Source of the DNA: Vectrevirus PDP21P6
Sequence record: OZ035822.1
Strand: one strand, 5' to 3'
DNA: 44,789 nt
The notes below the pieces were generated by a model. It worked only from the letters and a program-made list of their open reading frames with translations, ran no database searches and was not told the origin of the DNA. Position numbers and translations under genes: made by a program. Below are positions 30-33,583 of the stretch, in pieces (position 1 is the stretch's first letter; the number at the start of each line of letters is the position of its first letter).

Positions 30-329
30 GTGAGCGTACATAACAAACATGCAGCTACAGAAGACGAGGTTGGCATTCTGCATGGTGCTATTACCAAAAT
101 CTTCAATAAGAAAGCACAGGCAATACTGGACACTATAGAAGAAGACCCTGATGCAGCATTACATTTAGTGTCTGGTAAGGATATTGGTGCGATGTGTAAG
201 TGGGTTCTTGATAACGGCATTACCGCCACACCTGCTGCACAGCAGGAAGAGTCCAAGTTATCTAAGCGCCTCAAGGCTATCCGAGAGGCATCCAGTGGCA
301 AGATTATTCAGTTTACAAAAGAGGAGTGA
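30..329 (+). CDS. putative terminase small subunit (T7 gene 18 position)
   Basis: 99-aa ORF, GTG start with AGGAG RBS at 17-21; sits between holin and large terminase as in T7; no motif recognised, call is positional. Confidence 0.45.
   Translation: MSVHNKHAATEDEVGILHGAITKIFNKKAQAILDTIEEDPDAALHLVSGKDIGAMCKWVLDNGITATPAAQQEESKLSKRLKAIREASSGKIIQFTKEE
121..143 (+). promoter_or_regulatory. phage RNAP promoter embedded in terS coding sequence
   Basis: CAATACTGGACACTATAGAAGAA matches the genome-wide promoter core, predicted +1 G at 138. Confidence 0.55.
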
Positions 330-330
330 T

Positions 331-774
331 ATGCATAGATGGTGTGAATCTCAAGGTTATACCATCTTACCTTCTGGTGTCATCCTTTCAAAGGGTGGCA
401 CCCCTCTCAAACCATTCAAGGCGGGTAGGGGTTATTTAGCAGTTAAAATTAAAAATAAAGAAGGTAAATGGCGTAATGTCTATGTTCATCAATTAGTGGC
501 TTATAAGTATTTACCTAAAACTAATAATGAAGTAAACCACAAAGACGGCGATAAGCACAACAATGATGTTAGCAACTTGGAGTGGGTAACAAGAAGCGAG
601 AATAACTATTTAAAATGCAATGGAAATGATAGGAGTGCCTTAAATAGCTATTTAGCAAGATTAAAAGATTGCTTCTTGCAAGGTAAGGGTGTAGCAGAAA
701 CCGCTAGACTTACTGGTAAAAGTGAACCAAGAGTTTCTTCTCTCTTTAAGGAGTGGCGAAATGGCAAAGGCTAG
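331..774 (+). CDS. HNH homing endonuclease (HNH_3-like)
   Basis: ATG 331 after GAGGAG RBS; motif VNHKDGDKHNNDVSNLEWVTRSENN plus C-terminal HTH-like tail; inserted between terminase subunit genes, 3' end overlaps terL start. Confidence 0.75.
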   Translation: MHRWCESQGYTILPSGVILSKGGTPLKPFKAGRGYLAVKIKNKEGKWRNVYVHQLVAYKYLPKTNNEVNHKDGDKHNNDVSNLEWVTRSENNYLKCNGNDRSALNSYLARLKDCFLQGKGVAETARLTGKSEPRVSSLFKEWRNGKG

Positions 775-2659
775 AGAATCACAGGCAGAGGCATTAAAGC
801 GGTGGGAAAACCTTAAAGAACTACAAGACACTTTTAAATATACAGCGGAAGGTTTGCTTCTCTTTGCAGACACAGTTATTCATAACTTGATTGCAGGCAA
901 CCCTCATCTGATTCGTATGCAGGCTGATATCTTGAAGTTCCTATTCTACGGACACAAATATCGCCTCATCGAAGCGCCTCGTGGTATCGCTAAGACAACA
1001 CTATCAGCAATCTATACGGTATTCCGTATTATTCATGAACCGCATAAGCGTATCATGGTTGTGTCACAAAATGCTAAGCGAGCAGAGGAAATCGCAGGTT
1101 GGGTGGTGAAAATCTTTCGTGGCCTAGACTTCCTTGAGTTTATGCTGCCGGATATCTACGCAGGGGACCGTGCATCCGTTAAAGCATTTGAGATTCATTA
1201 CACCCTACGTGGTAGCGATAAGTCCCCCTCTGTATCCTGTTACTCAATCGAAGCAGGTATGCAGGGTGCTCGTGCTGATATTATTCTAGCGGATGACGTT
1301 GAATCGATGCAGAATGCTCGTACAGCAGCAGGCCGTGCATTGCTTGAGGAGTTGACCAAGGAATTTGAATCTATTAACCAATTTGGTGACATCATCTACC
1401 TTGGGACACCTCAGAACGTAAACTCTATCTACAATAACTTACCTGCTCGTGGTTACTCTGTTCGTATCTGGACTGCACGTTATCCTTCAGTGGAGCAGGA
1501 GCAATGCTATGGTGACTTCCTTGCACCTATGATTGTGCAGGATATGAAGGACAACCCCGCACTTCGCTCTGGTTATGGGTTGGACGGTAACAGTGGTGCA
1601 CCTTGCGCACCTGAAATGTACGATGATGAAGTGCTGATTGAGAAGGAAATCTCTCAGGGTGCGGCTAAGTTCCAGCTTCAGTTCATGCTTAACACTCGCA
1701 TGATGGATGCTGACAGATACCCACTTCGTCTAAACAATCTCATCTTCACTTCATTCGGTACTGAGGAAGTCCCTGTGATGCCTACGTGGAGCAACGACTC
1801 CATCAACATCATTGGAGATGCACCGAAGTATGGCAATAAACCTACAGACTTCATGTATCGACCTGTGGCTCGCCCCTATGAATGGGGTGCTGTTACCCGC
1901 AAGATTATGTATATCGACCCAGCGGGCGGCGGTAAGAATGGAGATGAAACGGGTGTAGCGATTGTCTTCCTGCACGGCACATTCATTTACGTGTATCAGT
2001 GCTTCGGCGTGCCAGGCGGATACCGCGAATCGTCCCTGAATCGCATTGTGCAGGCCGCAAAGCAGGCTGGTGTTAAAGAGGTATTCATTGAAAAGAACTT
2101 TGGTCATGGCGCGTTTGAGGCGGTAATTAAGCCTTACTTTGAACGAGAATGGCCTGTGACTCTGGAGGAGGATTACGCCACCGGACAGAAAGAGTTGCGT
2201 ATCATTGAGACGCTAGAGCCACTCATGGCGGCCCACAGGCTCATCTTTAACGCAGAGATGGTGAAATCGGACTTTGATTCGGTACAGAACTATCCGCTTG
2301 AGCTACGCATGTCCTACAGCCTTTTCAATCAAATGTCGAACATCACGATTGAGAAGAACAGCCTCCGGCACGATGACCGCTTAGACGCTCTGTATGGCGC
2401 TATACGGCAATTAACTTCTCAGATAGACTATGATGAGGTTACACGGATTAATCGCCTCAGAGCGCAGGAGATGCGCGATTACATCCATGCTATGAACACA
2501 CCTCACCTCCGTAGGGCGATGCTCTATGGAGATTATGGCACTGAGCGAAGAGTAACCAACACTTCCGTGGCTATGCAGCAAAGAGTGTACGGTCAGAATT
2601 ACAGGAGTAAATCGGCAAATCGAAATACACTTTCTGCAAGGATTTCAAGGACTTATTAA
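761..2659 (+). CDS. terminase large subunit (DNA maturase B)
   Basis: ATG 761 with AGGAG RBS 748-752; deviant Walker A PRGIAKTT and Walker B IILADDVE typical of T7 gp19-like terminases; 632 aa. Confidence 0.85.
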   Translation: MAKARESQAEALKRWENLKELQDTFKYTAEGLLLFADTVIHNLIAGNPHLIRMQADILKFLFYGHKYRLIEAPRGIAKTTLSAIYTVFRIIHEPHKRIMVVSQNAKRAEEIAGWVVKIFRGLDFLEFMLPDIYAGDRASVKAFEIHYTLRGSDKSPSVSCYSIEAGMQGARADIILADDVESMQNARTAAGRALLEELTKEFESINQFGDIIYLGTPQNVNSIYNNLPARGYSVRIWTARYPSVEQEQCYGDFLAPMIVQDMKDNPALRSGYGLDGNSGAPCAPEMYDDEVLIEKEISQGAAKFQLQFMLNTRMMDADRYPLRLNNLIFTSFGTEEVPVMPTWSNDSINIIGDAPKYGNKPTDFMYRPVARPYEWGAVTRKIMYIDPAGGGKNGDETGVAIVFLHGTFIYVYQCFGVPGGYRESSLNRIVQAAKQAGVKEVFIEKNFGHGAFEAVIKPYFEREWPVTLEEDYATGQKELRIIETLEPLMAAHRLIFNAEMVKSDFDSVQNYPLELRMSYSLFNQMSNITIEKNSLRHDDRLDALYGAIRQLTSQIDYDEVTRINRLRAQEMRDYIHAMNTPHLRRAMLYGDYGTERRVTNTSVAMQQRVYGQNYRSKSANRNTLSARISRTY

Positions 2660-2680
2660 TTACTGGACACTATAGAAGGA
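2658..2680 (+). promoter_or_regulatory. phage RNAP promoter
   Basis: AATTACTGGACACTATAGAAGGA, +1 G at 2675, directly after terL stop. Confidence 0.7.
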
Positions 2681-4332: not shown

Positions 4333-4355
4333 ATTTACTGGACACTATAGAAGAG
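4333..4355 (+). promoter_or_regulatory. phage RNAP promoter
   Basis: ATTTACTGGACACTATAGAAGAG, +1 G at 4350, upstream of tailspike 1. Confidence 0.7.
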
Positions 4356-8224: not shown

Positions 8225-8230
8225 GGTAAT

Positions 8231-8380
8231 ATGCCTTTAATTAAATCAGTTAAGCAAAGTGCTGTACGCCAGAACACAGAAGAACTTATTCAATCAGGAC
8301 GTGACCCTAAGCAAGCCTATGCGATTGCCAAGGATGTACAACGTCGTGCTATGAAGAAACCTTCTGCATCTTCTGCGTAA
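8231..8380 (+). CDS. hypothetical small protein
   Basis: 49-aa ORF, GAGGT RBS 4 nt before ATG 8231, starts 6 nt after tailspike 2 stop. Confidence 0.3.
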   Translation: MPLIKSVKQSAVRQNTEELIQSGRDPKQAYAIAKDVQRRAMKKPSASSA

Positions 8381-8450
8381 GCAGGTTAATATCTTAGTGT
8401 ACACAAGGGCAGACCTAGGTTTGCTCTTAGTGTATTTCAAAGGAGGTAAC

Positions 8451-8570
8451 ATGGGAGTGTTTAGCTTTATGTCAGGTACAACCAGTGATATGCCAAAGGA
8501 AGCATTCAGGAACTTCCTGATTATCGCAGGTGGAATCTTAGTGTTTTCACTAGTGCTGCTCACAAAGTAA
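8451..8570 (+). CDS. hypothetical small membrane protein
   Basis: 39-aa ORF with strong AGGAGGT RBS; C-terminal hydrophobic segment FLIIAGGILVFSLVLL. Confidence 0.3.
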   Translation: MGVFSFMSGTTSDMPKEAFRNFLIIAGGILVFSLVLLTK

Positions 8571-8984
8571 CCAAAGTCAAAATTTTGATATAGGCGTGTG
8601 TCAGCTCTCTCGCCCTCGCCCTCGCCGGGTTGTCCCCATAGGGTGGCCTGAGGGAATCCGTCGGAGACGGGTAGGGCTGATGTACTCCTTGTACTAGCTT
8701 AGTAGTACACAAGGGCAGGCCGTACTAGTTAGCTGGTACAGCCTAGTCTTTGCTCATGTACTAGCAAGGTGGAACGCCAGAGAGCGCCTAGGACGGCCTA
8801 GGGATGGCTTAGTGTTTGACAAGGTGAATGCCTTAGTGAAGCCTCTTAGTGCATTCCTGAGGCTATTCAGGGCCATTCCTGAGCGTTTGACAGGGTGGGC
8901 GTGGGTGGGCTATCTGTTCGTTTCGCTCCACTACGTTACGCTACACTCACCGCGCTCGTGTATCCTTGGTATAAACCTGATGGA

Positions 8985-9095
8985 TAGCTTAGGTTAACCT
9001 TAGTGGACTACCTTAATTAAAGCCTTAGTGCTTCACTTAGTATCAGCTTAGTAGTGTACCTTAGTTGGTCTTAGTGAATAGCCTTAGTGATTGCA
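8985..9095 (+). repeat. periodic array of CTTAGT(G) heptamer motifs
   Basis: about nine CTTAGT/CTTAGTG copies spaced 10-13 bp apart, with more copies scattered from 8393 to 10300; non-coding. Confidence 0.6.
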
Positions 9096-9316
9096 TAGCT
9101 AAAGCTATAAGATGCCAATAGGTCGCGGTCAGTAGACCGCTAAGAAAGAGAATAGTAATAAGATGCAGTAGGAGGGACACCAGAACACGGGACAACCTGG
9201 CCTCTCCTGTCTCTGTATCTATTACTTTCCTTAGTCTCACACGTTAGACAACCTAGGTTTCTCTTAGTAATTGTGACCTGTATCACATAAATAATCTATC
9301 TTAGTGAAACTTAGTG

Positions 9317-9345
9317 TTGACACAGGCAATCAACAGCTATACATT
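9317..9345 (+). promoter_or_regulatory. host sigma70-type early promoter
   Basis: TTGACA, 17-bp spacer, TACATT. Confidence 0.55.
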
Positions 9346-9493
9346 AGCAATCACTGAGGTGGACCTAGCAAGCTGCCTCAGGTTATAAGCAGGAGAATTG
9401 ATGCGTAAGCCATAGCTGGTGGATGTAGTCGCATGAAGGCTTGAGTAAGGGGCCGTTTAATACCTTCTTCCTCTGGAGACAACGCTTATAACA

Positions 9494-9508
9494 CCGCTCT
9501 TTAACAAT
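9494..9508 (+). promoter_or_regulatory. boxA-like antitermination element
   Basis: CCGCTCTTTAACAAT contains the rrn boxA core GCTCTTTAACAA; lies in the early leader. Confidence 0.5.
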
Positions 9509-9566
9509 CTGCTTAGTGTAACCTGTGTATGCCGTGGTTAATTACTTATTGAATGAGGAATTAACT

Positions 9567-9665
9567 ATGAATTACGAAAAACTGTATAAAGCCTATTACT
9601 ATAACGCATTAGTGAGAGGAGAAGAGCCTTTGTCTTTCGCTGAGTTTGTGGAGGCTTTATCATGA
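9567..9665 (+). CDS. hypothetical early protein
   Basis: 32-aa ORF, GAGGAA RBS, stop overlaps next start (ATGA). Confidence 0.3.
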   Translation: MNYEKLYKAYYYNALVRGEEPLSFAEFVEALS

Positions 9666-11069: not shown

Positions 11070-11133
11070 CTAGCCTATAGCCTGCCTGTGTGGGCTATGT
11101 GATATTTACTTATCACTATATAAGGTGACTATT

Positions 11134-12018
11134 ATGACTACTGAAAACATCCTCCTGTCTGTCCGTGAAGCTGCAACCGCTGAGATTAAGCAGCATTTGG
11201 ATAATATCGGCACTTCTTACATCAAAGTTGGCGCTTGTCTGAATGAATTACGCGGTGATTTCGAAGGTCAAAAAGACTTTTTAGCTTATGTAGAATCAGA
11301 GTTCGGCATCAAGAAAGCACAATGCTATAAGCTGATGAGTGTAGCCCGTGTCTTTGAGGGAGATGACCGCTTTAAAGGTGTGGCGATGCGTGTAATGCTG
11401 GCGCTTGTCCCTTTCGCTGATGAAAATATCATCATGGAGAAAGCCGCAGAACTCGCCGCAGAGGGCAAGCTGGACACTAACGCCGTAAACGCCTTGATTG
11501 AGCCTAAGAAAGAGCCAAAGTCTGAGACGGTACAACCCAAGGCTGAGCCTGTAAAACCGCAGGAGAACGCGACTGCGGCCGCAGAATCACAGGAAACGCA
11601 AGCGCCGCAGGAAGTGCCGCCAGCAAGTGAGTCAGATGACGACAAATCAGCACCGTGGGAAGAGGAAAGCAAGCCGGAAGCGCCAAAGGCCGCGCCACTG
11701 GACAACACGGCTAACACTGAAAACGCCGCTATGGCTGGCCTACTGGCACAAATTAAGGCACTGACTGAGCAATTACAGGCAGCTAACGACCGCATCGCCG
11801 CCCTAACCAGCGCACGCGAAAGCAAGAAGGCAGCCGCGCCTATGCTTCCACAGTTTAAATCCTCTTGCTTTTACGCTCGCTTAGGTTTGAGTGCTGAAGA
11901 GGCAACGAAGAAAACTGCTGTTAACAAAGCACGCCGCGAACTGGTTAAACTGGGTTACGGTGAAGGACACGAGGCATGGCCTTTAATCTCTGAGGCAGTA
12001 GAAGAATTGACCAAGTAA
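11134..12018 (+). CDS. hypothetical early protein with acidic/Pro-rich low-complexity linker
   Basis: ATG 11134 with AAGGTG RBS; 294 aa; helical N-domain, central linker, C-terminal predicted coiled coil; no kinase motifs. Confidence 0.6.
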   Translation: MTTENILLSVREAATAEIKQHLDNIGTSYIKVGACLNELRGDFEGQKDFLAYVESEFGIKKAQCYKLMSVARVFEGDDRFKGVAMRVMLALVPFADENIIMEKAAELAAEGKLDTNAVNALIEPKKEPKSETVQPKAEPVKPQENATAAAESQETQAPQEVPPASESDDDKSAPWEEESKPEAPKAAPLDNTANTENAAMAGLLAQIKALTEQLQAANDRIAALTSARESKKAAAPMLPQFKSSCFYARLGLSAEEATKKTAVNKARRELVKLGYGEGHEAWPLISEAVEELTK

Positions 12019-12080
12019 CCTTATCGGTGGCATCTTCTTAGGTGTCACCTATTAAGGTTTCTTTAACGGGAGTACACAAA

Positions 12081-14708
12081 ATGCAGGACTTATACGCTAT
12101 CCAGCTTCAGCTTGAAGAAGAGATGTTTAATGGTGGTATCCGTCGCTTTGAAGCAGACCAACAACGCCAGATTGCATCCGGTAATGAATCCGACACGGCA
12201 TGGAATCGCCGCTTATTGTCTGAGTTAATCGCACCGATGGCGGAAGGTATTCAGGCTTATAAGGAAGAGTATGAAGGCAAGCGCGGTCGTGCACCGCGTG
12301 CATTGGCTTTCATTAACTGCGTAGAAAATGAAGTGGCAGCGTATATCACGATGAAAATCGTAATGGATATGCTTAATAATGATGTGACTTTGCAGGCTAT
12401 AGCCATGAATGTAGCTGACCGCATAGAAGACCAAGTGCGCTTCAGCAAGCTGGAAGGACACGCCGCCAAATACTTTGAGAAAGTTAAGAAGTCACTTAAG
12501 GCAAGTAAGACTAAATCATATCGCCATGCGCACAACGTAGCGGTCGTGGCTGAGAAGTCAGTAGCTGACCGTGACGCTGATTTCTCTCGCTGGGAGGCGT
12601 GGCCTAAAGATACCTTGCTACAAATCGGTATGACCTTGCTAGAAATACTGGAGAATAGCGTATTCTTCAACGGGCAGCCTGTTTTCCTCCGCACCTTGCG
12701 CACTAACGGCGGCAAGCATGGCGTTTACTACTTACAGACTAGCGAACACGTGGGTGAATGGATAACTGCATTTAAAGAGCACGTAGCGCAATTAAGTCCT
12801 GCCTATGCGCCTTGCGTTATTCCTCCTCGTCCGTGGGTTTCTCCGTTTAATGGTGGCTTCCATACCGAGAAGGTGGCGAGTCGTATTCGTCTGGTTAAAG
12901 GAAACCGCGAGCACGTCCGCAAGCTGACCAAAAAGCAAATGCCAGCGGTTTACAAGGCTGTTAACGCTTTGCAGGCGACTAAGTGGCAGGTTAATAAAGA
13001 GGTTTTGCAGGTAGTAGAGGACGTTATCCGTCTCGACCTTGGTTATGGTGTGCCTTCCTTTAAACCACTCATCGACCGTGAGAACAAGCCAGCTAATCCA
13101 GTGCCGTTAGAGTTCCAGCACCTGCGAGGCCGTGAACTTAAAGAGATGCTAACGCCGGAACAATGGCAAGCCTTCATCAACTGGAAAGGCGAATGTACCA
13201 AGCTGTATACCGCTGAAACTAAGCGCGGCAGCAAGTCGGCGGCAACCGTTCGCATGGTCGGGCAGGCCCGTAAATACAGCCAGTTTGACGCAATATACTT
13301 CGTGTATGCACTGGATAGCCGTTCACGCGTTTATGCGCAATCTAGCACGCTCTCGCCGCAATCAAACGACCTAGGCAAGGCGTTACTGCGTTTCACCGAA
13401 GGGCAGCCTCTAAATAACTCTGAGGCGCTTAAGTGGTTTTTGGTGAACGGTGCTAATAACTGGGGTTGGGATAAGAAAACTTTCGACGTCCGCACCGCTA
13501 ACGTGTTAGATGGTGAATTCCAAGACATGTGCCGCGATATTGCAGCCGACCCGCTGACTTTTACTCAATGGGTGAATGCTGACTCCCCTTATGGCTTCCT
13601 TGCATGGTGCTTTGAATATGCGCGTTATCTGGATGCACTGGATGAAGGCACGCAAGACCAATTCATGACGCACCTACCCGTCCATCAAGACGGTAGTTGC
13701 TCTGGTATCCAGCACTATAGCGCGATGTTACGCGATGAAGTAGGTGCGAAAGCAGTAAACCTTAAGCCTTCTGACTCCCCTCAAGATATTTATGGCGCGG
13801 TTGCGCAGGTTGTTATCCAGAAGAATTACGCTTACATGAATGCAGATGATGCAGAGACGTTCACATCTGGAAGCGTCACACTTACAGGTGCAGAACTGCG
13901 TAGCATGGCTAGCGCATGGGATATGATAGGTATCACTCGCGGATTAACCAAAAAGCCGGTAATGACCTTGCCGTATGGCTCTACCCGCTTAACATGCCGT
14001 GAGTCAGTGATTGATTATATTGTTGATTTGGAAGAAAAAGAGGCACAAAGGGCTATTGCAGAAGGGCGGACGGCTAATCCGGTGCACCCTTTTGATAATG
14101 ACCGTAAAGATTATTTAACACCGGGCGCAGCTTATAACTACATGACCGCGTTAATTTGGCCTTCTATCTCTGAGGTTGTTAAAGCACCTATAGTGGCGAT
14201 GAAAATGATTCGCCAACTCGCACGATTCGCAGCTAAAAGAAACGAAGGGTTAGAATATCCCTTGCCTACTGGCTTTATCTTGCAACAAAAGATAATGGCT
14301 ACCGACATGCTACGCGTATCCACTTGCTTGATGGGTGAAATCAAGATGAGTCTACAGATTGAGACTGATGTAGTGGATGAAACGGCAATGATGGGCGCTG
14401 CCGCTCCCAACTTTGTTCACGGGCATGATGCTAGTCATCTCATCCTGACTGTATGTGACCTCGTTGATAAGGGCATTACATCCATCGCAGTCATCCATGA
14501 TTCCTTTGGTACTCATGCAGGCCGTACAGCAGACCTGCGGGATAGCTTAAGGGCAGAAATGGTGAAGATGTATCAAGGTCGTAATGCCCTGCAAAGCCTG
14601 TTAGATGAGCATGAAGAACGCTGGTTAGTAGACACCGGAATCCAAGTGCCAGAGCAAGGAGAATTTGACCTTAACGAAATCTTAGTATCTGACTATTGCT
14701 TCGCATAA
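12081..14708 (+). CDS. single-subunit DNA-directed RNA polymerase (T7/SP6 family)
   Basis: motifs [37 protein letters not shown] and C-terminal ...YCFA; ATG 12081; N-terminus [16 protein letters not shown] resembles SP6-type RNAPs from memory. Confidence 0.95.
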
Positions 14709-14781: not shown

Positions 14782-14797
14782 GTCTCACATGTGAGAC
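14782..14797 (+). repeat. 16-bp perfect palindrome GTCTCACATGTGAGAC (copy 1)
   Basis: exact palindrome, 3 bp upstream of promoter 14800. Confidence 0.8.
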
Positions 14798-14963: not shown

Positions 14964-14979
14964 GTCTCACATGTGAGAC
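14964..14979 (+). repeat. 16-bp perfect palindrome GTCTCACATGTGAGAC (copy 2)
   Basis: exact palindrome, 5 bp upstream of promoter 14985. Confidence 0.8.
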
Positions 14980-14984
14980 TTCGT

Positions 14985-15007
14985 ATTTACCGGACAGTAT
15001 AGATAAG
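14985..15007 (+). promoter_or_regulatory. phage RNAP promoter (variant)
   Basis: ATTTACCGGACAGTATAGATAAG, +1 G at 15002; upstream of gene 1.1 homolog. Confidence 0.5.
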
Positions 15008-15032
15008 ACTAACTTACTTTGGAGATTTAACC

Positions 15033-15164: not shown

Positions 15165-15383
15165 ATGGCTAAATATAGAATTAAGACATGCTTAAACAGT
15201 CACGGGCACGAGTGCTATGTAGTACAGCGTAAAGTGTTATGTTTCTTATGGGTGACTTGCATGATACCTATTGGGTTCACTGATACTGAAGCAATCTTCG
15301 GTACAGAAGATGATGCATATAGGTTCATTGCCAAGCGCAGAAAAGGTGATTCTTATAGACACAGAATTATTAAGGTAAACTAA
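15165..15383 (+). CDS. hypothetical protein
   Basis: 72-aa ORF with GGAG RBS. Confidence 0.5.
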   Translation: MAKYRIKTCLNSHGHECYVVQRKVLCFLWVTCMIPIGFTDTEAIFGTEDDAYRFIAKRRKGDSYRHRIIKVN

Positions 15384-17371
15384 TGGCTATTATTAATAAC
15401 ATTCCGTGCCCTGCCTGCCAGAAGAATGGACACGATAAATCCGGCAATCATCTTATGATATTTGATGACGGTGCTGGCTACTGTAACCGTGGTCACTTCC
15501 ATGATAATGGCAAGCCTTACTACCATAAGCCCGAAGGTGGCATCGAGATAACAGAGTTACCTATCACTGGCAACATCAAATATACACCTTCTCAGTTTAA
15601 AGAGATGGAGAAGGAAGGGAAGATAAGCGACCCTAAGTTGCGCGCCATCGCACTTGGTGGTATGCGTATGAAAGACCGTTGGGAGGTCATGAATGAGCAA
15701 GAAAGGGCAGAGCAAGAAGCAGAGTGGAAACTTGATGTTGAATGGTTCCTCACGCTTAAGCGTAAGAATCTTGTTTCCCGACACATTCGCGGCGACATTT
15801 GCGCATTGTATGATGTACGTGTCGGACATGATGAAGAGGGTAGAGTCTCACGGCATTACTATCCACGCTTCGAGAAAGGTGAACTAGTAGGCGCTAAGTG
15901 TCGCACATTACCTAAAGACTTTAAGTTTGGTCATTTAGGTAAACTATTTGGTATGCAAGATCTTTTCGGTATGAATACTTTGTCTCACGTGTTAGACAAG
16001 GGAAGACGAAAGGATTGCTTGCTTATTGTGGGTGGGGAACTGGATGCACTAGCAGCGCAGCAGATGCTCCTTGATTCTGCCAAGGGTACTAAGTGGGAAG
16101 GGCAGCCTTACCATGTATGGTCTGTCAATAAGGGTGAATCTTGCCTTGAAGAAATTGTGCAGAACCGTGAGCACATAGCCCAATTCAAGAAGATTATTTG
16201 GGGCTTTGATGGGGATGAGGTAGGACAGAAGCAGAACCAACAAGCGGCTCGCCTGTTTCCCGGCAAATCCTACATCCTTGAATACCCTTCTGGTTGCAAA
16301 GATGCCAACAAGGCATTGATGGCTGGTAAGGCCAAAGAATTTGTGGATGCTTGGTTTAATGCAAAGTCATCTGATGAAGTCTTTGGTAGCCAGATTAAAT
16401 CTATCGCATCTCAAAGGGATAAGCTCAAGGCTGCACGTCCAGAACAAGGGCTGTCATGGCCTTGGCCTAAGCTAAACAAGGTAACGCTGGGTATCCGTAA
16501 GAATCAGCTTATCATTGTAGGTGCAGGCTCTGGTGTGGGTAAGACTGAGTTTCTCCGTGAAGTAGTTAAGCATCTCATTGAAGAACACGGTGAATCTGTA
16601 GGCATCATTTCTACAGAAGACCCGATGGTCAAAGTGTCCCGTGCTTTTATCGGCAAATGGATTGATAAGCGTATTGAGTTACCACCAACCAACGACCCGA
16701 AAGAAGATGGATACCGTGAGGTGTTCGACTATACCGAGGAAGAAGCTAACGCCGCCATTGATTATGTAGCCGATACAGGGAAGCTGTTTGTAGCTGACCT
16801 AGAAGGTGACTACTCGATGGAGAAGGTAGAGCAGACCTGCCTTGAGTTTGAGGCTATGGGTATTTCCAATATCATCATTGATAACTTAACGGGGATTAAA
16901 TTAGATGAGCGTGCTTTTGGTGGGAAGGTTGGTGCACTTGATGAATGCGTCAAGCGGATTGGTACTATCAAAGACCGACACCCAGTTACTATATTCCTTG
17001 TATCACACCTTACACGTCCTCCGGCAAACCGTACCCAACACGAAGAAGGTGGCGAGGTTATCCTTTCTGACTTCCGAGGCTCAGGGGCTATCGGATTCTG
17101 GGCATCTTACGCCTTGGGGATTGAGCGTAACACAAGAGCTGAAACGCTTGATGAAAGAACTACCACGTACATTTCATGTGTCAAAGACCGCGACCAAGGT
17201 ATCTACACCGGAACCAAGATCATGCTTAAGGGTGACATTCAGACCGGACGTTTGAGAGAACCTCAAGCCCGTACTAGGTCATTTGATACAGGCGAAGCAA
17301 GGCAACAAGAAGTGCCTGATTTACCGGACACTATAGAAGAGACTAACTTCGATGAAGAAAGTGAGTTCTGA
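15383..17371 (+). CDS. DNA primase/helicase (T7 gp4-like)
   Basis: N-terminal zinc ribbon CPACQKNGHDKSG...YCNRGHFH, Walker A GAGSGVGKT, acidic C-terminal tail ending ...NFDEESEF. Confidence 0.9.
   Translation: MAIINNIPCPACQKNGHDKSGNHLMIFDDGAGYCNRGHFHDNGKPYYHKPEGGIEITELPITGNIKYTPSQFKEMEKEGKISDPKLRAIALGGMRMKDRWEVMNEQERAEQEAEWKLDVEWFLTLKRKNLVSRHIRGDICALYDVRVGHDEEGRVSRHYYPRFEKGELVGAKCRTLPKDFKFGHLGKLFGMQDLFGMNTLSHVLDKGRRKDCLLIVGGELDALAAQQMLLDSAKGTKWEGQPYHVWSVNKGESCLEEIVQNREHIAQFKKIIWGFDGDEVGQKQNQQAARLFPGKSYILEYPSGCKDANKALMAGKAKEFVDAWFNAKSSDEVFGSQIKSIASQRDKLKAARPEQGLSWPWPKLNKVTLGIRKNQLIIVGAGSGVGKTEFLREVVKHLIEEHGESVGIISTEDPMVKVSRAFIGKWIDKRIELPPTNDPKEDGYREVFDYTEEEANAAIDYVADTGKLFVADLEGDYSMEKVEQTCLEFEAMGISNIIIDNLTGIKLDERAFGGKVGALDECVKRIGTIKDRHPVTIFLVSHLTRPPANRTQHEEGGEVILSDFRGSGAIGFWASYALGIERNTRAETLDERTTTYISCVKDRDQGIYTGTKIMLKGDIQTGRLREPQARTRSFDTGEARQQEVPDLPDTIEETNFDEESEF
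17319..17341 (+). promoter_or_regulatory. phage RNAP promoter embedded in 3' end of primase-helicase gene
   Basis: ATTTACCGGACACTATAGAAGAG, +1 G at 17336. Confidence 0.6.
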
Positions 17372-17388
17372 TTAGTGTATTTATCAGG

Positions 17389-17419
17389 GCTTGTCTCACA
17401 TGTGAGACAGGCTCTTATT
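17389..17419 (+). terminator. terminator-like hairpin containing palindrome copy 3
   Basis: GCTTGTCTCACATGTGAGACAGGC (core GTCTCACATGTGAGAC at 17393-17408) followed by TCTTATT. Confidence 0.55.
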
Positions 17420-17447
17420 AAGTACATTAAATAACTGGAGATTGATT

Positions 17448-18170
17448 ATGTATAAATTAGCATTGAATGTAGGTGATTATGTTCGTAACATCAATGAAGC
17501 CTCACGTCGTTATCGTTGCCGTGGTGTAGTGGATCATGTAAGTGAGAACATGTACCATGTAGAATATGATGATGGTATTAAGGCTTCTTATCACAAGAAA
17601 ACCGCACATAAATATCTTGAAAAGATTGTAGAGGTAAACAATCAATGTAAGTGCATACATGATGAGGTTTGCGATAAGTGTGCACGTCAGGTAGTTAAAG
17701 CCTTTACCTTTGCTCAACGTTATGGTTCTATGTATGGTGCTGGTCACAAGACCATTGCAGAAGCAGCTTGGAAGACATTGCAGTTTGAGCGTTCAAATGG
17801 ACGACGCACCACACTTAAGAAAGAGCGCCGCAATGTAATCACTGGTAAGACTCAAAGTGAGATGGTTAAGTTATGTGGTACTGCATTAGGCGTGTCACAG
17901 TTTAATACCCGTGCTCTAGGTAAATCTACAGGTCAAGCTATGGTGAAGATTGGCGAAGCTATGATGCACCCGAATGTACCTGTGCGAATCGTGGATGTTG
18001 ACCATGCAATCACAGAGCATGGTACACCACGCCGTGTAGCTAACAATCATTTTGCCGACACTATAGAAGACATTATCCGTAAGCAAGAGTTGAAAGGTCT
18101 TCACATCTTGAATGGTGAAGAATTATTGTACCTCCCTATCGTTACTGAAGAAACCTACGTGAATATCTAA
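17448..18170 (+). CDS. hypothetical protein
   Basis: ATG 17448 with GGAG RBS; 240 aa; Cys cluster CKCIHDEVCDKC. Confidence 0.55.
   Translation: MYKLALNVGDYVRNINEASRRYRCRGVVDHVSENMYHVEYDDGIKASYHKKTAHKYLEKIVEVNNQCKCIHDEVCDKCARQVVKAFTFAQRYGSMYGAGHKTIAEAAWKTLQFERSNGRRTTLKKERRNVITGKTQSEMVKLCGTALGVSQFNTRALGKSTGQAMVKIGEAMMHPNVPVRIVDVDHAITEHGTPRRVANNHFADTIEDIIRKQELKGLHILNGEELLYLPIVTEETYVNI
18059..18081 (+). promoter_or_regulatory. possible weak phage RNAP promoter inside coding sequence
   Basis: ATTTTGCCGACACTATAGAAGAC keeps the ACACTATAGAAG core but has 3 mismatches in the -9 to -13 region. Confidence 0.3.
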
Positions 18171-18666: not shown

Positions 18667-18774
18667 ATGCCACGTGATTATGATTCTGATTGGGACTACT
18701 ATGACTCAATGAATCCAAAACCCGAACGTTCAGATGATTACTACGAAACAGAGGCAATGTATGAAAACTATTGA
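18667..18774 (+). CDS. hypothetical acidic Tyr-rich peptide
   Basis: 35-aa ORF MPRDYDSDWDYYDSMNPKPERSDDYYETEAMYENY with GGAGGT RBS; overlaps DNAP start out of frame. Confidence 0.25.
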   Translation: MPRDYDSDWDYYDSMNPKPERSDDYYETEAMYENY

Positions 18775-21271
18775 TTGGAAGAAGGAAGCAGAAGGGCGCA
18801 TCCTAGTGATGGACGCCGAAGCTAAAGGTTTGCTTGATGCTATCCGCTATGGCCATCGTGAAGATGTACACATCATTTGCTGCATGGATTTGCTTACTAC
18901 AGAGGAGTTCTTATTCTTTGACCCATATGAGATGCGTGACCCTGAAGCAAGAGAACACCTGAAGGAATGGGAAGGACATCAAGATGGAACCTTGGTTGAC
19001 GGTGTTAACTTCCTGAAGCATTGTGAAGCTATTGTGTCACAGAACTTCCTAGGGTATGACGGCCTTCTCTTTGAGAAAGCATTCCCTGATATTTGGAAAG
19101 GCTTTAACTATACCGAGAAGCGCGGCAAGGGCAGACTCCGTGCTGACCTGTGTCCTATCCGTGTTGTCGACACACTGGTAATGAGTCGCCTGTTAAACCC
19201 CGACAGACGTCTTCCTCCGCAAGCTTATGCCAAGGGCATGGGTAACGTTGCCCCTCACTCAATTGAGGCGCACGGCATTCGTATAGGCCGCTATAAGCCG
19301 GAGAACGAAGACTGGTCTAAACTAACCGACCACATGGTTCATCGTGTACGTGAGGACGTGGCAATCGGGCGTGACCTGTTCCTCTGGCTATACAACGGAG
19401 AATGGACGGAGCACAAACGCCGTGGCGTGAACAAACGCACTGGCCTAGGGATTGAGACAGCCTTCCACATGGAGTCCATTGTGGCGCTGGAGATGAGCCG
19501 TCAGGCAGAGCGTGGATTCCGTCTGGATATAGACAAGGCGTTAGCGCGATGCAAAGAACTGGACGCTAAGATTGATGAGACAGTCGCAGCGTTCCGCCCT
19601 CACATGCCTATGCGTATCAAGTCTAAACCTTTTAAACCGGAAGAAAAGAATGAAGTATGCCAACGCGCAAATGAGTATGGAGCTAGCAACAATATACCTA
19701 CTGTCCTTGACCCCTCTCTCTTTCTTCACACAGAGAGACGAGGAGATCGCAAGACAATATGGAGTGTCACTACTAAGTCTGGTGATTGGTCAGCTAGTGT
19801 CAAGAAAGACTTTCCTCACCTTAGAGGAAACCGTAATGACACGCCAAGCATCAAGTGGATTGGCGCTTACTCGCCTGTTACTTTCGAAGAGATTCCCTTG
19901 GGTAACAGGGATACAGTTAAGCAAGTGCTCTATGATTATGGATGGAAAGGTGTTGAATTTAACGATACCGAGCAAGCGCATCTGGATGAGCACGGAGTAT
20001 TACCCAAACCTTGGAGTGGAAAGATAAATGAGAAGTCCCTTACTTTATGGCAGGAAAGAGCCGCACGTGAAGGTAAAACAGTCCCTGATTGGTGCTTGGG
20101 TATCGCTGAATGGTACATTCTCGTTAGCCGTCGCGGACAGATACTCAACCGTGGTGACGTTGAAGCCTTCGATCAAAAAGGGGCGTGGCCCTCGCAGGCT
20201 GGTGTACGAAAGTGTCGTGGCCTTGTACCTGTAGCATTTAACAAGGAGCTAGGAATCAATGCGCAGCAATACTACGAAAGGTATGGATGTTGGCCTACGT
20301 CTGACAAAGATGATGGAGAGTGGCGTGTGCCAGGCAATGCTGTTACTATTGGTACTAATACGTTTCGTATGCGTCATCGTAACATTGTTAATATTCCTTC
20401 CCGTGGGTTGTATCCTCTACGTGATTTATTCATAGCTAGCAAAGGTAAAATGATACTCGGATGTGATGGCGCGGGTCTTGAGCTTCGCATCTTAGCCCAT
20501 TTCATGGGTGATCCTGAGTATATTGATATTGTCTTGAATGGCGATATTCACTCACACAACCAAGCGAAGGCTGGATTGCCCTTACGTGACACTGCGAAAA
20601 CATTTATCTACGCTTTTCTCTACGGGTCTGGCATACCAAACCTTGCCGCTGTATGTGGCATGACTGAAGCACAGATGAAAGAGTGTGTCGCTCGCTTTGA
20701 AGTAGAGCTACCTCACTTAGCTAAGCTTAAGGAGGGAGTGGAATCTGCTGCTTCACAATTTGGGTACATGCACGCTGTAGATGGGCGCTGGGGTCGTGTA
20801 CGTGTTAGTAATGGTGAGATTAAGATTCACACCTGTCTTAATGTACTCCTCCAGATGACCGGTTCTCTCACTATGAAGTACTCAAAAGTGAAAGCACTAG
20901 CTACCATGCGTAAAGAGGGCGTGGCTCTTGATGCTAATGGTAATCCTGCTATGCTTGTCGACTATCACGATGAGTGGCAGATGGAGGTGCCTGAAGACGA
21001 AGTGTTAGAAATTCGCTACTCTATTCCTTCCTCTGAATGGAAAGAAGAAGAGAAAAGGCAGTATCGTGATAGCGAAGGACGCATGTGGTCTGCTCCTAAG
21101 GTGGTTGAAGGTAATCCAAAAGAAGATGAAGAGGTCACTGTACGTCGTCGTTATCATCGTGCTGGTGAAATCCTAGCTGAGTCTATTACTTGGGCAGGTG
21201 AATATCTTAAGCTTCGTATCCGTATGGATGGCGAATATATGCTTGGATATTCATGGGCTGAGACACACTGA
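18761..21271 (+). CDS. DNA polymerase (family A, T7 gp5-like)
   Basis: ATG 18761 with GAGG RBS; motifs DGAGLELRILAHFM, RDTAKTFIYAFLYGSG, YHDEWQMEV. Confidence 0.95.
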   Translation: MKTIDWKKEAEGRILVMDAEAKGLLDAIRYGHREDVHIICCMDLLTTEEFLFFDPYEMRDPEAREHLKEWEGHQDGTLVDGVNFLKHCEAIVSQNFLGYDGLLFEKAFPDIWKGFNYTEKRGKGRLRADLCPIRVVDTLVMSRLLNPDRRLPPQAYAKGMGNVAPHSIEAHGIRIGRYKPENEDWSKLTDHMVHRVREDVAIGRDLFLWLYNGEWTEHKRRGVNKRTGLGIETAFHMESIVALEMSRQAERGFRLDIDKALARCKELDAKIDETVAAFRPHMPMRIKSKPFKPEEKNEVCQRANEYGASNNIPTVLDPSLFLHTERRGDRKTIWSVTTKSGDWSASVKKDFPHLRGNRNDTPSIKWIGAYSPVTFEEIPLGNRDTVKQVLYDYGWKGVEFNDTEQAHLDEHGVLPKPWSGKINEKSLTLWQERAAREGKTVPDWCLGIAEWYILVSRRGQILNRGDVEAFDQKGAWPSQAGVRKCRGLVPVAFNKELGINAQQYYERYGCWPTSDKDDGEWRVPGNAVTIGTNTFRMRHRNIVNIPSRGLYPLRDLFIASKGKMILGCDGAGLELRILAHFMGDPEYIDIVLNGDIHSHNQAKAGLPLRDTAKTFIYAFLYGSGIPNLAAVCGMTEAQMKECVARFEVELPHLAKLKEGVESAASQFGYMHAVDGRWGRVRVSNGEIKIHTCLNVLLQMTGSLTMKYSKVKALATMRKEGVALDANGNPAMLVDYHDEWQMEVPEDEVLEIRYSIPSSEWKEEEKRQYRDSEGRMWSAPKVVEGNPKEDEEVTVRRRYHRAGEILAESITWAGEYLKLRIRMDGEYMLGYSWAETH

Positions 21272-21590: not shown

Positions 21591-21612
21591 TTTACTGGAC
21601 ACTATAGAAGGA
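21590..21612 (+). promoter_or_regulatory. phage RNAP promoter
   Basis: ATTTACTGGACACTATAGAAGGA, +1 G at 21607, followed by AT-rich CCTAGG-containing leader. Confidence 0.7.
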
Positions 21613-29111: not shown

Positions 29112-29569
29112 TACGTCCAGCTTCCTTCCTAGATATTCCTGAGATTATAAACCTTGGGAATAAATATGTGGAAGAGGAAGTCAAGGTTGTAGCCCACCAC
29201 TCAGCCTCATGGAATGCAGAACAAAGTGCACATAACCTTTGTGCATCTCTTAGTAGAGAAGATTTATTCCTATGGGTTGCTGTAGATGAAGGGCAGATTG
29301 TAGGGTTCCTGTGGGCTGGCTATCACGAGTTGGCCCCTTGGACACCTGTAAGAGTTGCCTCTGACATTCTCTTTTATATTATACCAGAGAGGCGAGGAAC
29401 ACTTCTTGGTATGCGTCTCATCAAAGCCCTAAAGCAATGGGCTAGTGATAATGAATGCTCTGAGGTTCGCCTGTCTATCGCCTCTGGTATTAATGAAGAA
29501 CGTGTCGGACGTATGTATAAGCGACTTGGCTTTGAACCGTTTGGCACTGTGTATAACATGAAGTTCTAA
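29108..29569 (+). CDS. GNAT-family N-acetyltransferase
   Basis: acetyl-CoA binding motifs RRGTLLGMRLIKAL and ERVGRMYKRLGFEP; 153 aa. Confidence 0.7.
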   Translation: MIRPASFLDIPEIINLGNKYVEEEVKVVAHHSASWNAEQSAHNLCASLSREDLFLWVAVDEGQIVGFLWAGYHELAPWTPVRVASDILFYIIPERRGTLLGMRLIKALKQWASDNECSEVRLSIASGINEERVGRMYKRLGFEPFGTVYNMKF

Positions 29570-29578
29570 GGAGATAAC

Positions 29579-29788
29579 ATGGGTGTTGTAAAGAAAGCAT
29601 TTAAGGCTATCGGTCTTGCTCAAGATGCACCACGTATTGAAGCCAAAGTACCAGCACAGCAGCTTGAGCGTAAGCCCGAGACTGAAGCTGAAGATATTCA
29701 GATTGGTGCAGGAGATGATGATGCGACTGCATCTGCAAAAGGTAAGCGCGGCCTTGTCCGTCCGGTAGCTTCTAGCTTGAAGGTGTAA
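29579..29788 (+). CDS. hypothetical protein upstream of portal
   Basis: 69-aa ORF with AAGGAG RBS. Confidence 0.45.
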   Translation: MGVVKKAFKAIGLAQDAPRIEAKVPAQQLERKPETEAEDIQIGAGDDDATASAKGKRGLVRPVASSLKV

Positions 29789-33549: not shown

Positions 33550-33583
33550 GCCCTATCTACCTTGCGTAGGTAGGGTTCTTTTT
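33550..33583 (+). terminator. T-phi-like intrinsic terminator after capsid gene
   Basis: CCCTATCTACC-ttgcg-TAGGTAGGG then TTCTTTTT; near-identical design to 24008-24041. Confidence 0.7.

What the first reader, a model, noticed from the sequence alone, without database searches (positions are those of the whole stretch)
121..143. Phage promoters embedded inside coding sequences
One promoter lies within the putative terS coding region (121-143) and another in the last codons of the primase-helicase gene (17319-17341); a weaker candidate is inside ORF 17448-18170 (18059-18081). The terS-internal one could drive the HNH and terL genes independently of terS. The coding sequence is constrained to keep the promoter (reads as ...DTIEE...).
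Basis: seen in the sequence. Interest (0 to 1): 0.4.

Follow-up and report, generated by a model that had tools for sequence, protein, structure and literature searches.

The report
Phage RNA-polymerase promoters inside genes
Copies of this K1-5/SP6-type phage's own RNA-polymerase promoter lie inside three protein-coding genes; two are very probably working promoters, but this is an ordinary, already documented feature of T7/SP6-type phages.

Summary
The window is a Vectrevirus (K1-5/K1E-like, SP6 supergroup) genome. The motif is real. The core GACACTATAGAAG occurs 14 times at ≤2 mismatches, all on the + strand, against 1.4 expected.

The full 23-bp sites inside genes are:
- 121-143, +1 G138, in terS.
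- 17319-17341, +1 G17336, 35 nt before the primase/helicase stop.
- 18049-18071, +1 G18066, in gp10.

The helicase-tail site is as good as the intergenic promoters (37.8 bits). It sits at the same place in five genera. In each genus it carries that phage's own promoter specificity bases, with matching amino-acid changes (LPDTIEE / LGDTIEE / LETTIEE / IGATIEQ / LPPSIEE). A Proteus phage record already annotates it as a promoter.

The terS site matches 19/19 from -14 to +5 in most Vectrevirus examined (three loci carry one or two changes). It is absent from every other genus. It arose by about four synonymous changes plus one Ala→Thr change. It should give the HNH and terL genes their own transcript after about 11 kb without a promoter.

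The gp10 site is weak (18.9 bits, mismatches at -13, -12 and -10), so its function is doubtful.

No transcript data exist. T7 φ4c, inside gene 4, is the textbook precedent. Verdict: interpretation supported, already known, low interest.

The parts
121..143 (+). terS-internal phage-RNAP promoter, -17..+6, +1 = G138. Sequence CAATACTGGACACTATA|GAAGAA, read as A-I-L-D-T-I-E-E.
   Evidence: (25.4 bits). It matches 19/19 from -14 to +5 in most Vectrevirus and 12-14/19 in other genera.
17319..17341 (+). Promoter in the last codons of the primase/helicase gene, +1 = G17336, 35 nt before the stop. Sequence ATTTACCGGACACTATA|GAAGAG, read as D-L-P-D-T-I-E-E.
   Evidence: 37.8 bits; co-variation across five genera; annotated as a promoter in Proteus phage Pm5460.
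18049..18071 (+). Weak promoter-like site inside gp10, +1 = G18066.
   Evidence: (18.9 bits).
30..329 (+). terS (small terminase subunit), host gene of the first site.
   Evidence: PHROG 891, E 9.5e-26; annotations of relatives.
331..774 (+). HNH homing endonuclease inserted between terS and terL. It is the first gene downstream of the terS-internal promoter.
   Evidence: PHROG 59/959. It is absent at this place in K1-5.
761..2659 (+). terL (large terminase subunit). The real start is ATG 761 behind AAGGAG. It is the main presumed target of the terS-internal promoter.
15383..17371 (+). Primase/helicase. Its acidic C-terminal tail (...DLPDTIEETNFDEESEF*) hosts the second site.
   Evidence: The T7 gp4 tail is shown for comparison.
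17372..17430 (+). Long interrupted hairpin directly after the helicase stop, between the promoter and the gp10 start. Its apex is the palindrome GTCTCACATGTGAGAC. It is a likely RNA processing site (RNase III-type) or a weak terminator.
   Evidence: -35.5 kcal/mol for the 125-nt segment 17336-17460 that contains the hairpin, z = -3.6.
17448..18170 (+). gp10 (unknown function, PHROG 6703). It hosts the third site and is the first gene downstream of the helicase-tail promoter.
18734..21271 (+). DNA polymerase, the largest gene of the unit served by the 17336 and 18066 sites. The next promoter is at 21607.
12042..14708 (+). Phage single-subunit RNA polymerase, the enzyme that would use these promoters.
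   Evidence: aligns with T7 RNAP; 98% identical to the K1-5 'putative RNA polymerase'. Its specificity loop differs between promoter classes.
2658..2680 (+). Reference intergenic promoter (+1 at 2675). It overlaps the terL stop codon by 2 nt. The other reference promoters have +1 at 4350, 10773, 14817, 21607, 22376, 23522, 27145 and 32283.
33550..33576 (+). Terminator-like hairpin followed by a T-run, after the capsid gene. From here there is no phage promoter for about 11.3 kb (around the circular permutation) until the terS site.

Best explanation
The sites at 121-143 and 17319-17341 are genuine promoters for the phage's own single-subunit RNA polymerase (gene 12042-14708), written into coding sequence.

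Mechanism (inferred). The polymerase binds the duplex at -17..-5. The AT-rich loop reads -17..-13 and the specificity loop reads -12..-8. The enzyme melts TATA and starts at the G of TATA|G (G138, G17336), regardless of the ORF that runs through the site.

Helicase-tail promoter. It starts the gp10 - small ORFs - DNA polymerase unit. Its transcript runs through a long hairpin at 17372-17430, as in the T7 pairs of a promoter followed by an RNase III site. The promoter sits in the ORF because in the ancestral (K1E-type) arrangement the next gene starts on the helicase stop codon, which leaves no intergenic space. The helicase C-terminal acidic tail is also a sequence-tolerant linker.

terS promoter. 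It is a Vectrevirus-specific gain. It restarts transcription for terL (and here for the inserted HNH gene) after about 11 kb of promoterless late genes downstream of the capsid terminator.

Reading frame. Only one reading frame of the SP6-type promoter is free of stop codons, and two frames of the K1-5-type promoter are. All embedded copies use the frame that reads (L)-x-D-T-I-E.

gp10 site. The site at 18049-18071 is at best a weak promoter.

What is shown and what is inferred. Shown: the sequence matches, the conservation and the co-variation. Inferred: initiation, promoter strength and physiological role.
For: 1. Motif excess and strand bias: 14 hits, all on the + strand, against 1.38 expected. 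PWM scores are 37.8 bits (helicase) and 25.4 bits (terS), against 29.5-39.2 for the nine intergenic sites and 6.1 for the best site outside the family.

2. Co-variation in the helicase tail. The site lies at the same place in five genera and carries each phage's own specificity bases:
- Vectrevirus: ATTTACCGGACACTATAG
- SP6, Kenya-K11 and Klebsiella M186: AATTAGGTGACACTATAG
- Proteus Pm5460: AATTAGAGACCACTATAG
- Lelliottia phD2B: AAATAGGGGCTACTATAG
- Erwinia Era103: AATTACCACCCAGCATAG
Each site matches its own intergenic consensus at 9-10 of 10 positions (-12..-3), against 3-7 for the other classes. The encoded residues change accordingly (LPD / LGD / LET / IGA / LPPS). The RNAP specificity loops also differ between classes; for example, the residue aligned with T7 N748 is S in Vectrevirus and R in the others.

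3. A public record (NC_028916) annotates this site (8915-8937) as a promoter inside the primase/helicase CDS.

4. terS. The 19/19 match from -14 to +5 is present in 10 genomes, 9 of 12 IMG/VR loci, 7 further GenBank Vectrevirus down to 86% identity, and 5 metagenome contigs. Other genera encode AIL(D/A/E)(A/V)(I/V)EE with other codons and match only 12-14/19. The gain therefore took about four synonymous changes plus A->T, all towards the consensus.

5. Codon choice. The three sites use GAC-ACT-ATA; the other three DTI tripeptides in the proteome do not.

6. Transcription-unit logic. There is no other promoter between the capsid terminator (33550-33576) and terS, and none between 17336 and 21607 apart from the weak site at 18066.

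7. Uncoupling. In Vectrevirus PDP21P3 an HNH insertion separated the promoter from the helicase ORF, and the promoter is kept intact.
Against: - No transcript 5'-end data for any Vectrevirus were found.
- The terS site departs from the consensus at -17, -16 and -15 (CAA instead of ATT or AAT) and scores below every intergenic site.
- Within the genus, synonymous variation over the terS core is low (0.027 against 0.205). However, 4 of 70 other six-codon windows are as low, so this is suggestive only. For gp10 the invariant run is no longer than others in the gene.
- Natural variants touch positions expected to matter. K1-5 (helicase site) and L004 (terS site) have T at -7. L012 (terS site) has G at -8. 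L052 and L053 (helicase site) have A at -10. Selection is therefore not absolute.
- The Era103 helicase site keeps a mismatch at -3 that a synonymous change could repair.
- The gp10 site has mismatches at -13, -12 and -10 in the specificity region. Its 18.9 bits equals the best score seen in 30 random genomes.
Confidence: 0.8

Rival explanations
1. The sites are look-alikes without promoter activity. They would be kept because the proteins need the D-T-I-E peptide, or simply because the genus is young and little has changed.
For: - Within Vectrevirus the synonymous-site test is not decisive.
- Outgroups already encode a related peptide at the same place in terS (AILDAIEE), and Proteus phage gp10 has DNIM. 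Part of the match therefore comes free with the protein.
- The gp10 site scores only 18.9 bits.
Against: - In the helicase tail the peptide is not conserved. It changes exactly as the promoter class changes in five genera.
- The terS core differs from all outgroups by several synonymous changes, all towards the consensus.
- The other DTI tripeptides use other codons. The same decapeptide KAQAILDTIE in an unrelated metagenome protein uses CTT GAC ACA ATT.
- T7-type polymerases need only the promoter sequence to start transcription (established knowledge).
Confidence: 0.08
2. The sites are real polymerase entry points, but their main role is not mRNA supply. They could prime DNA replication, as the T7 origins built on promoters plus an AT-rich stretch do. 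Alternatively they could serve as shared 23-bp crossover points between genome modules.
For: - The helicase-tail promoter is followed by a hairpin and an AT-rich stretch.
- The same palindrome flanks the two promoters after the RNAP gene, the place of the T7 primary origin (T7 origin from established knowledge).
- Sequence downstream of +6 in the helicase tail falls into two haplotypes, with or without gp9.5, so the promoter lies on a mosaic boundary.
Against: - GC skew shows no switch at 17.3 kb or at terS.
- Each site lies 112-193 nt upstream of a gene start with a ribosome-binding site, and at a point where the transcription map otherwise has a long gap.
- These roles do not exclude mRNA synthesis.
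Confidence: 0.1
3. Only the helicase-tail site works. The terS and gp10 sites are too far from the consensus to be used in vivo.
For: - The terS site has three mismatches in the AT-rich upstream part, and the gp10 site has three in the specificity region. Both score below all intergenic sites.
- Neither is conserved outside its lineage at the same codons.
Against: - terS keeps every base from -14 to +5, the part that carries specificity and melting in T7-type promoters (established knowledge).
- Its replacements at +5 and +6 (E->G, GAAGGG or GAAGGA) fall on start-region variants used by strong intergenic promoters.
- SP6-type phages carry their own-type site (TTACGTGACACTATAGG) in the same part of gp10, 4-7 codons away. 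This suggests repeated selection for a start there.
Confidence: 0.15

Closest known systems
T7 promoter φ4c, inside gene 4 (primase/helicase) of phage T7
   Same: It is a promoter for the phage's own single-subunit RNA polymerase, located inside the primase/helicase ORF and in the gene's orientation. The RefSeq T7 record annotates it at 12671, within CDS 11565-13265.
   Different: - φ4c lies 594 nt before the stop, whereas the site here lies 35 nt before it, so the two are not positionally homologous.
- φ4c is a diverged copy (CAATCCGACTCACTAAA|GAGAGA, read as QSDSLKRE) in another frame, with TATAG changed to TAAAG.
- The Vectrevirus helicase site is a full-consensus copy.
Annotated promoter 8915-8937 inside the primase/helicase gene of Proteus phage vB_PmiP_Pm5460 (NC_028916, Acadevirus, Molineuxvirinae)
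   Same: It occupies the same position (35 nt before the helicase stop) in the same frame and the same gene (87% identical protein). The depositors predicted it as a phage promoter with PHIRE.
   Different: It belongs to a different specificity class (AGAGACCACTATA instead of ACCGGACACTATA), so the peptide is ELETTIEE instead of DLPDTIEE. It is a prediction only, with no experiment.
SP6 / K1-5 / K1E RNA-polymerase promoters (SP6 consensus ATTTAGGTGACACTATAGAAG)
   Same: They share the 23-bp architecture, the CACTATA|G core and start point, and the AT-rich -17..-13 part. K1-5 and K1E carry all three embedded sites at the same codons. K1E RNAP with a K1E promoter is used as an expression system (PMC6412113).
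   Different: SP6 itself lacks the terS site (AILAAVEE). Instead it has an embedded site in an internal virion protein gene (+1 at 29410). The published promoter lists for SP6 and K1-5 (Dobbins 2004; Scholl 2004) could not be read here, so I cannot say which embedded sites they list.
T7 arrangement of a promoter followed by an RNase III processing hairpin (for example φ3.8/R3.8, φ4.7/R4.7, φ6.5/R6.5)
   Same: The helicase-tail promoter is followed within 36 nt by a long interrupted hairpin (17372-17430) just before the next ribosome-binding site. The T7 layout is from established knowledge.
   Different: Cleavage by RNase III was not tested. The hairpin apex is a perfect 16-bp palindrome repeated three times in the window, which could instead be a protein-binding site or a weak terminator.

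Membership tests
T7-supergroup single-subunit RNAP promoter, SP6/K1-5 subclass | A roughly 23-bp site (-17..+6) with an AT-rich -17..-13 part, the conserved core CACTATA and a start at the following G. | tested here: met
   Identity to the window consensus is 20/23 at site 138, 21/23 at 17336 and 18/23 at 18066. The core GACACTATAGAAG is exact in all three.
T7-supergroup single-subunit RNAP promoter, SP6/K1-5 subclass | The specificity region -12..-8 matches the phage's own promoter class. | tested here: met
   Met for site 138 (CTGGA, the majority form) and for 17336 (CCGGA, the same as intergenic site 14817). For 18066 (GCCGA, with T at -13) it is not clearly met. The PWM gives 25.4, 37.8 and 18.9 bits respectively.
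T7-supergroup single-subunit RNAP promoter, SP6/K1-5 subclass | The cognate RNA polymerase is encoded by the same genome, and the sites are co-oriented with the genes. | tested here: met
   The RNAP gene is at 12042-14708. All family sites and all genes are on the + strand.
T7-supergroup single-subunit RNAP promoter, SP6/K1-5 subclass | The site is conserved in relatives and follows changes in polymerase specificity. | tested here: met
   - Helicase tail: five genera, 9-10 of 10 matches to the phage's own class against 3-7 to the other classes.
- terS: genus-wide but genus-specific.
- gp10: genus-wide in Vectrevirus, at a displaced position in SP6-type phages, and absent in L059, Proteus and Lelliottia phages.
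T7-supergroup single-subunit RNAP promoter, SP6/K1-5 subclass | Transcription actually starts at +1 with the phage polymerase. | not testable with these tools
   No transcriptome or in vitro data for Vectrevirus were found in the paper library.
Sequence under dual (protein plus promoter) constraint | Synonymous variation across relatives is lower over the element than in the rest of the gene. | tested here: inconclusive
   In terS, synonymous heterozygosity is 0.027 inside the core against 0.205 outside, but 4 of 70 control windows are as low. The run in gp10 is not exceptional. Between genera, the helicase tail shows the constraint through forced amino-acid changes.
Host sigma-70 promoter | -35 and -10 hexamers with 16-18 bp spacing. 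| tested here: not met
   The scan found no sigma-70-like site at 121-143, 17319-17341 or 18049-18071, and the region as a whole has fewer such sites than shuffles (24 against 36.6).

The most novel reading that the evidence does not exclude
The embedded promoters would be a clean natural example of two codes evolving together.

- Each time the polymerase's promoter specificity changed in the Molineuxvirinae, the helicase's C-terminal (polymerase-contacting) tail was forced to change residues: P/G/E/G/P at one position and D/D/T/A/P at the next.
- Vectrevirus built a new promoter de novo inside terS, almost entirely from synonymous changes, to give terL its own transcript.
- A third start site was gained independently in gp10 in two lineages.

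If so, such promoters would be dated, lineage-specific regulatory innovations rather than passive overlaps.
Probability: 0.5. Interest if true: 0.3.

Novelty: already known. Interest (0 to 1): 0.18.

Why it matters
The practical value is for annotation and engineering.

- Transcription maps of K1-5-like therapeutic phages should include the start sites at G138 and G17336.
- Codon-optimising or recoding terS or the helicase tail would destroy promoters that serve terL and the DNA polymerase unit.
- Homing-endonuclease insertions (HNH at 331-774 here; at the helicase 3' end in PDP21P3) land just downstream of, or onto, these promoters and can use them.

Conceptually the finding adds only a tidy example of promoter and protein co-variation to a phenomenon known since the T7 sequence.

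Tried and rejected
- **Published promoter lists.** The SP6 and K1-5 genome papers (Dobbins 2004; Scholl 2004), the SP6 promoter mutagenesis paper (Shin 2000) and the T7 refactoring paper are not held. The GenBank records of K1-5, K1E and SP6 carry no promoter features. I therefore could not check whether the terS site was listed before.
- **Transcriptome data.** Paper searches for Vectrevirus or SP6-like transcriptomes found nothing usable.
- **Synonymous conservation within the genus.** The test has too little divergence: it is suggestive for terS and uninformative for gp10.
- **Metagenome scan.** A scan for any codon spelling of KAQAILDTIE gave only five more Vectrevirus, all with the promoter spelling, plus one unrelated protein.
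- **Replication origin.** GC skew shows no switch at the sites.
- **Rfam.** No family matched in the window.
- **Sigma-70 promoter reading.** Rejected.
- **Chance.** Rejected.

Full report
**What the window is.** The first 6 kb match unannotated and annotated Vectrevirus genomes at 90-98% identity, including K1-5, K1E, VEc3 and LI10P5. All genes lie on the + strand. The assembly is circularly permuted and starts in the 3' end of the holin gene, just before terS. Gene identities were confirmed against PHROGs:
- 30-329: small terminase (terS).
- 331-774: HNH endonuclease.
- 761-2659: large terminase (terL). The real start, ATG 761, was found by comparison with K1-5.
- 15383-17371: primase/helicase.
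- 17448-18170: a protein of unknown function, K1-5 gene 10.
- 18734-21271: DNA polymerase.

The phage's single-subunit RNA polymerase gene is at 12042-14708.

**The observation.** The core GACACTATAGAAG occurs 14 times with up to two mismatches, always on the + strand, against 1.38 expected; none of 100 shuffles reached 14. With flanks, twelve sites form one family with the consensus ATTTACTGGACACTATA|GAAGRR. This is the K1-5/K1E version of the SP6 promoter.

Three family members lie inside ORFs:
- 121-143, +1 G138, in terS.
- 17319-17341, +1 G17336, 35 nt before the helicase stop.
- 18049-18071, +1 G18066, in gp10.

The third (18059-18081) is 10 nt too high. All three sites are read as GAC ACT ATA GAA G.. 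= DTIE(E/D).

I built a weight matrix from the nine intergenic sites only. The scores are:

| Site | Score (bits) |
|---|---|
| Helicase tail (17336) | 37.8 |
| terS (138) | 25.4 |
| gp10 (18066) | 18.9 |
| Nine intergenic training sites | 29.5-39.2 |
| Best site in the window outside the family | 6.1 |
| Highest maximum in 30 random genomes | 18.4 |

So the first two sites are far beyond chance, and the third is marginal on this measure despite its exact 13-nt core.

**Why always DTIE.** One frame of the promoter contains TAG. In the SP6-type sequence a second frame contains TGA. The remaining frame reads (L)-x-D-T-I-E. Of the six DTI tripeptides in the proteome, only the three promoter sites use GAC-ACT-ATA, which has a probability of 0.027 each from the genome's codon usage (ATA makes up 17% of Ile codons). 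The other three use GAT-AC(A/T)-AT(C/T).

**Helicase-tail site: strong comparative evidence.** I fetched whole or partial genomes from five genera of Molineuxvirinae and derived each phage's own promoter consensus from its intergenic sites. In every one, a site of that phage's own class lies 35-45 nt before the helicase stop (14 nt in SP6):

| Phage group | Helicase-tail site | Peptide |
|---|---|---|
| Vectrevirus | ATTTACCGGACACTATAG | DLPDTIEE |
| SP6, Kenya-K11, Klebsiella M186 | AATTAGGTGACACTATAG | ELGDTIEE |
| Proteus Pm5460 | AATTAGAGACCACTATAG | ELETTIEE |
| Lelliottia phD2B | AAATAGGGGCTACTATAG | EIGATIEQ |
| Erwinia Era103 | AATTACCACCCAGCATAG | ELPPSIEE |

At -12..-3, each tail site matches its own consensus at 9-10 of 10 positions and the other classes at 3-7. 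The protein therefore changes residues to follow the promoter, which is the reverse of what protein constraint alone would give.

The polymerases differ in the specificity loop in step with the classes. The residue aligned with T7 N748 is S in Vectrevirus and R in the others, with further class-specific changes. The role of that loop is established knowledge for T7.

The RefSeq record of Proteus phage Pm5460 already annotates this site (8915-8937) as a phage promoter inside the primase/helicase CDS.

The tail that hosts the site is acidic and ends in F, like the T7 gp4 tail. In T7 that tail is a flexible polymerase-contacting segment (established knowledge), so it is a tolerant place for a second code.

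In K1E-type genomes a small gene (gp9.5) starts on the helicase stop codon. That leaves no intergenic room and explains why the promoter had to be inside the ORF. In the window gp9.5 is missing. Instead the promoter is followed by a long interrupted hairpin (17372-17430; z = -3.6) and then by the gp10 ribosome-binding site. This resembles the T7 pairs of a promoter followed by an RNase III site.

In Vectrevirus PDP21P3 an HNH gene has been inserted at the helicase 3' end. The helicase has a new tail, the promoter survives 465 nt downstream, and the HNH ORF ends on the TAG inside the promoter.

**terS site: a lineage-specific gain.** The 19 bases from -14 to +5 are identical to the consensus in the following:
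- all ten Vectrevirus genomes;
- nine of twelve IMG/VR loci (L004 and L012 carry one change in the core and L010 carries two);
- seven further GenBank Vectrevirus, down to 86% terS identity;
- five metagenome contigs.

All other genera encode a similar peptide, AIL(D/A/E)(A/V)(I/V)EE, with other codons and match only 12-14 of 19. Relative to the nearest outgroup state (ATC CTT GAC GCT ATC GAG), Vectrevirus has ATA CTG GAC ACT ATA GAA. That is four synonymous changes and one Ala->Thr change, all towards the promoter.

Just after the core, the protein is free to vary. E38 is G or A in about 40% of sequences, giving GAAGGG or GAAGGA, which are start regions used by strong intergenic promoters.

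Within the genus, synonymous heterozygosity over the six core codons is 0.027, against 0.205 elsewhere in terS. Four of 70 control windows are equally low, so this test alone is only suggestive.

The site departs from the consensus only at -17..-15 (CAA). I infer that it is active but weaker than the intergenic promoters.

Context supports a role. A strong terminator-like hairpin follows the capsid gene (33550-33576). After it no family site occurs for about 11.3 kb, through the tail, internal virion, adaptor and holin genes, until terS. No terminator is predicted between G138 and terL. The promoter would thus give terL its own transcript. The HNH gene, absent at this position in K1-5, was inserted later downstream of an existing promoter.

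SP6-type phages lack the terS site. They have another embedded site in an internal virion protein gene (SP6 +1 29410, read as LGDTIGA).

**gp10 site: doubtful.**
- The core and ATTT at -17..-14 are kept in all Vectrevirus-type relatives.
- However, -13 (T/C), -12 (G) and -10 (C; A in one contig) differ from the main class.
- The run of invariant codons is not unusual for the gene.
- SP6-type phages have a site of their own type (TTACGTGACACTATAGG) in the same part of the gene. It is displaced by 4-7 codons relative to both flanking anchors.
- A phage with SP6-type promoters and a Vectrevirus-like gp10 (L059) has none, and neither do the Proteus and Lelliottia phages.
- This pattern fits two independent gains of a weak start upstream of the small ORFs and the DNA polymerase. 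It does not prove activity.

**Continuum of overlap.** Four of the 'intergenic' promoters already overlap the preceding stop codon by 1-6 nt: +1 at 2675, 21607, 22376 and 27145. Embedding is the far end of ordinary genome compaction.

**Comparison with what is known.** Promoters for the phage polymerase inside coding sequence are a documented property of T7. The RefSeq record places φ4c at 12671, within gene 4 (11565-13265). φ4c sits 594 nt from the stop, in another frame, and is a diverged copy. It is therefore an analogue, not the same element. The helicase-tail promoter itself is annotated in a relative. K1-5 and K1E, sequenced in 2004-2006, carry the three sites unchanged. I could not read their genome papers, so I cannot say whether the terS site was listed. 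The finding is therefore correct but not new. What may be new is only the explicit co-variation of the helicase tail peptide with promoter class, and the reconstruction of the terS gain.

**Limits.** Nothing here shows initiation. The decisive data are primary 5'-end mapping in infected cells, run-off transcription with K1-5/K1E polymerase, and synonymous knock-outs.

Noticed in passing
window 14782-14797, 14964-14979, 17397-17412: A perfect 16-bp palindrome, GTCTCACATGTGAGAC, occurs three times, each next to an ATTTACCGGACA-type promoter. Two copies lie 3-5 nt upstream of the two promoters that follow the RNAP gene, which is the place of the T7 primary origin. The third lies 60 nt downstream of the helicase-tail promoter, at the apex of the long hairpin 17372-17430. 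It could be an RNase III-type site, a weak terminator or a protein-binding site; this is unresolved.
   Followed up: partly
window 14985-15015 and 17319-17349: A 31-nt direct repeat (90% identical) covers a weak promoter variant (ATTTACCGGACAGTATA|GATAAG, +1 at 15002, conserved in all Vectrevirus) and the helicase-tail promoter. The similarity continues past the promoter to +14 (GACTAACTT), which suggests a duplication.
   Followed up: no
window 331-774; L002 (K1E) 38777-39310; L029 (PDP21P3) about 16840-17300: HNH homing endonuclease genes sit at different places in close relatives: between terS and terL here, inside terL in K1E, and at the helicase 3' end in PDP21P3. In PDP21P3 the HNH ORF ends on the TAG of the promoter and the helicase has a replacement tail.
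   Followed up: partly
window 17342-17371, compared with L002 9365-9394: Directly after +6 of the helicase-tail promoter, relatives fall into two haplotypes: ...ETNFDEESEF* and ...ETTFDDEQEF*. The second comes with an extra small membrane-protein ORF (gp9.5) that starts on the helicase stop codon. The promoter thus coincides with a mosaic (recombination) boundary.
   Followed up: partly
L003 (SP6) +1 at 29410; L031 (Kenya-K11) +1 at 29640: SP6-type phages carry an embedded promoter-like site, CGCTAGGTGACACTATA|GGTGCC (read as LGDTIGA), inside an internal virion protein gene. Vectrevirus has none there but has the terS site instead. This may be an alternative solution for restarting late transcription.
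   Followed up: no
window 33550-33576: A strong terminator-like hairpin (11 pairs) followed by TCTTTTTGTT lies directly after the major capsid gene, as in T7 and SP6. No phage promoter follows for about 11.3 kb.
   Followed up: partly
window 11104-11126: A further weak family member, ATTTACTTATCACTATA|TAAGGT (13.3 bits), overlaps the start of ORF 11125-12018. K1-5 and K1E have similar sites at the same place. Its start base would be T, not G.
   Followed up: no
window about 8225-9660: This stretch has no + strand ORF of 60 aa or more except 8812-8997. By offset from K1-5 it should contain the physical genome ends and terminal repeat, so the window is a circularly permuted assembly that begins inside the holin gene.
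   Followed up: no
L042 (Era103) 1862-1884: The Era103 helicase-tail site, AATTACCACCCAGCATA|GAAGAA, differs from its own consensus at -3 (C instead of T), although AGC->AGT would be synonymous. It may be a weakened copy.
   Followed up: no
window 17961-18170: A separate PHROG of 69-aa proteins (phrog_29871) matches only residues 172-240 of gp10. In some phages the C-terminal part therefore seems to be called as a separate ORF. An ATGATG lies at 17961.
   Followed up: no
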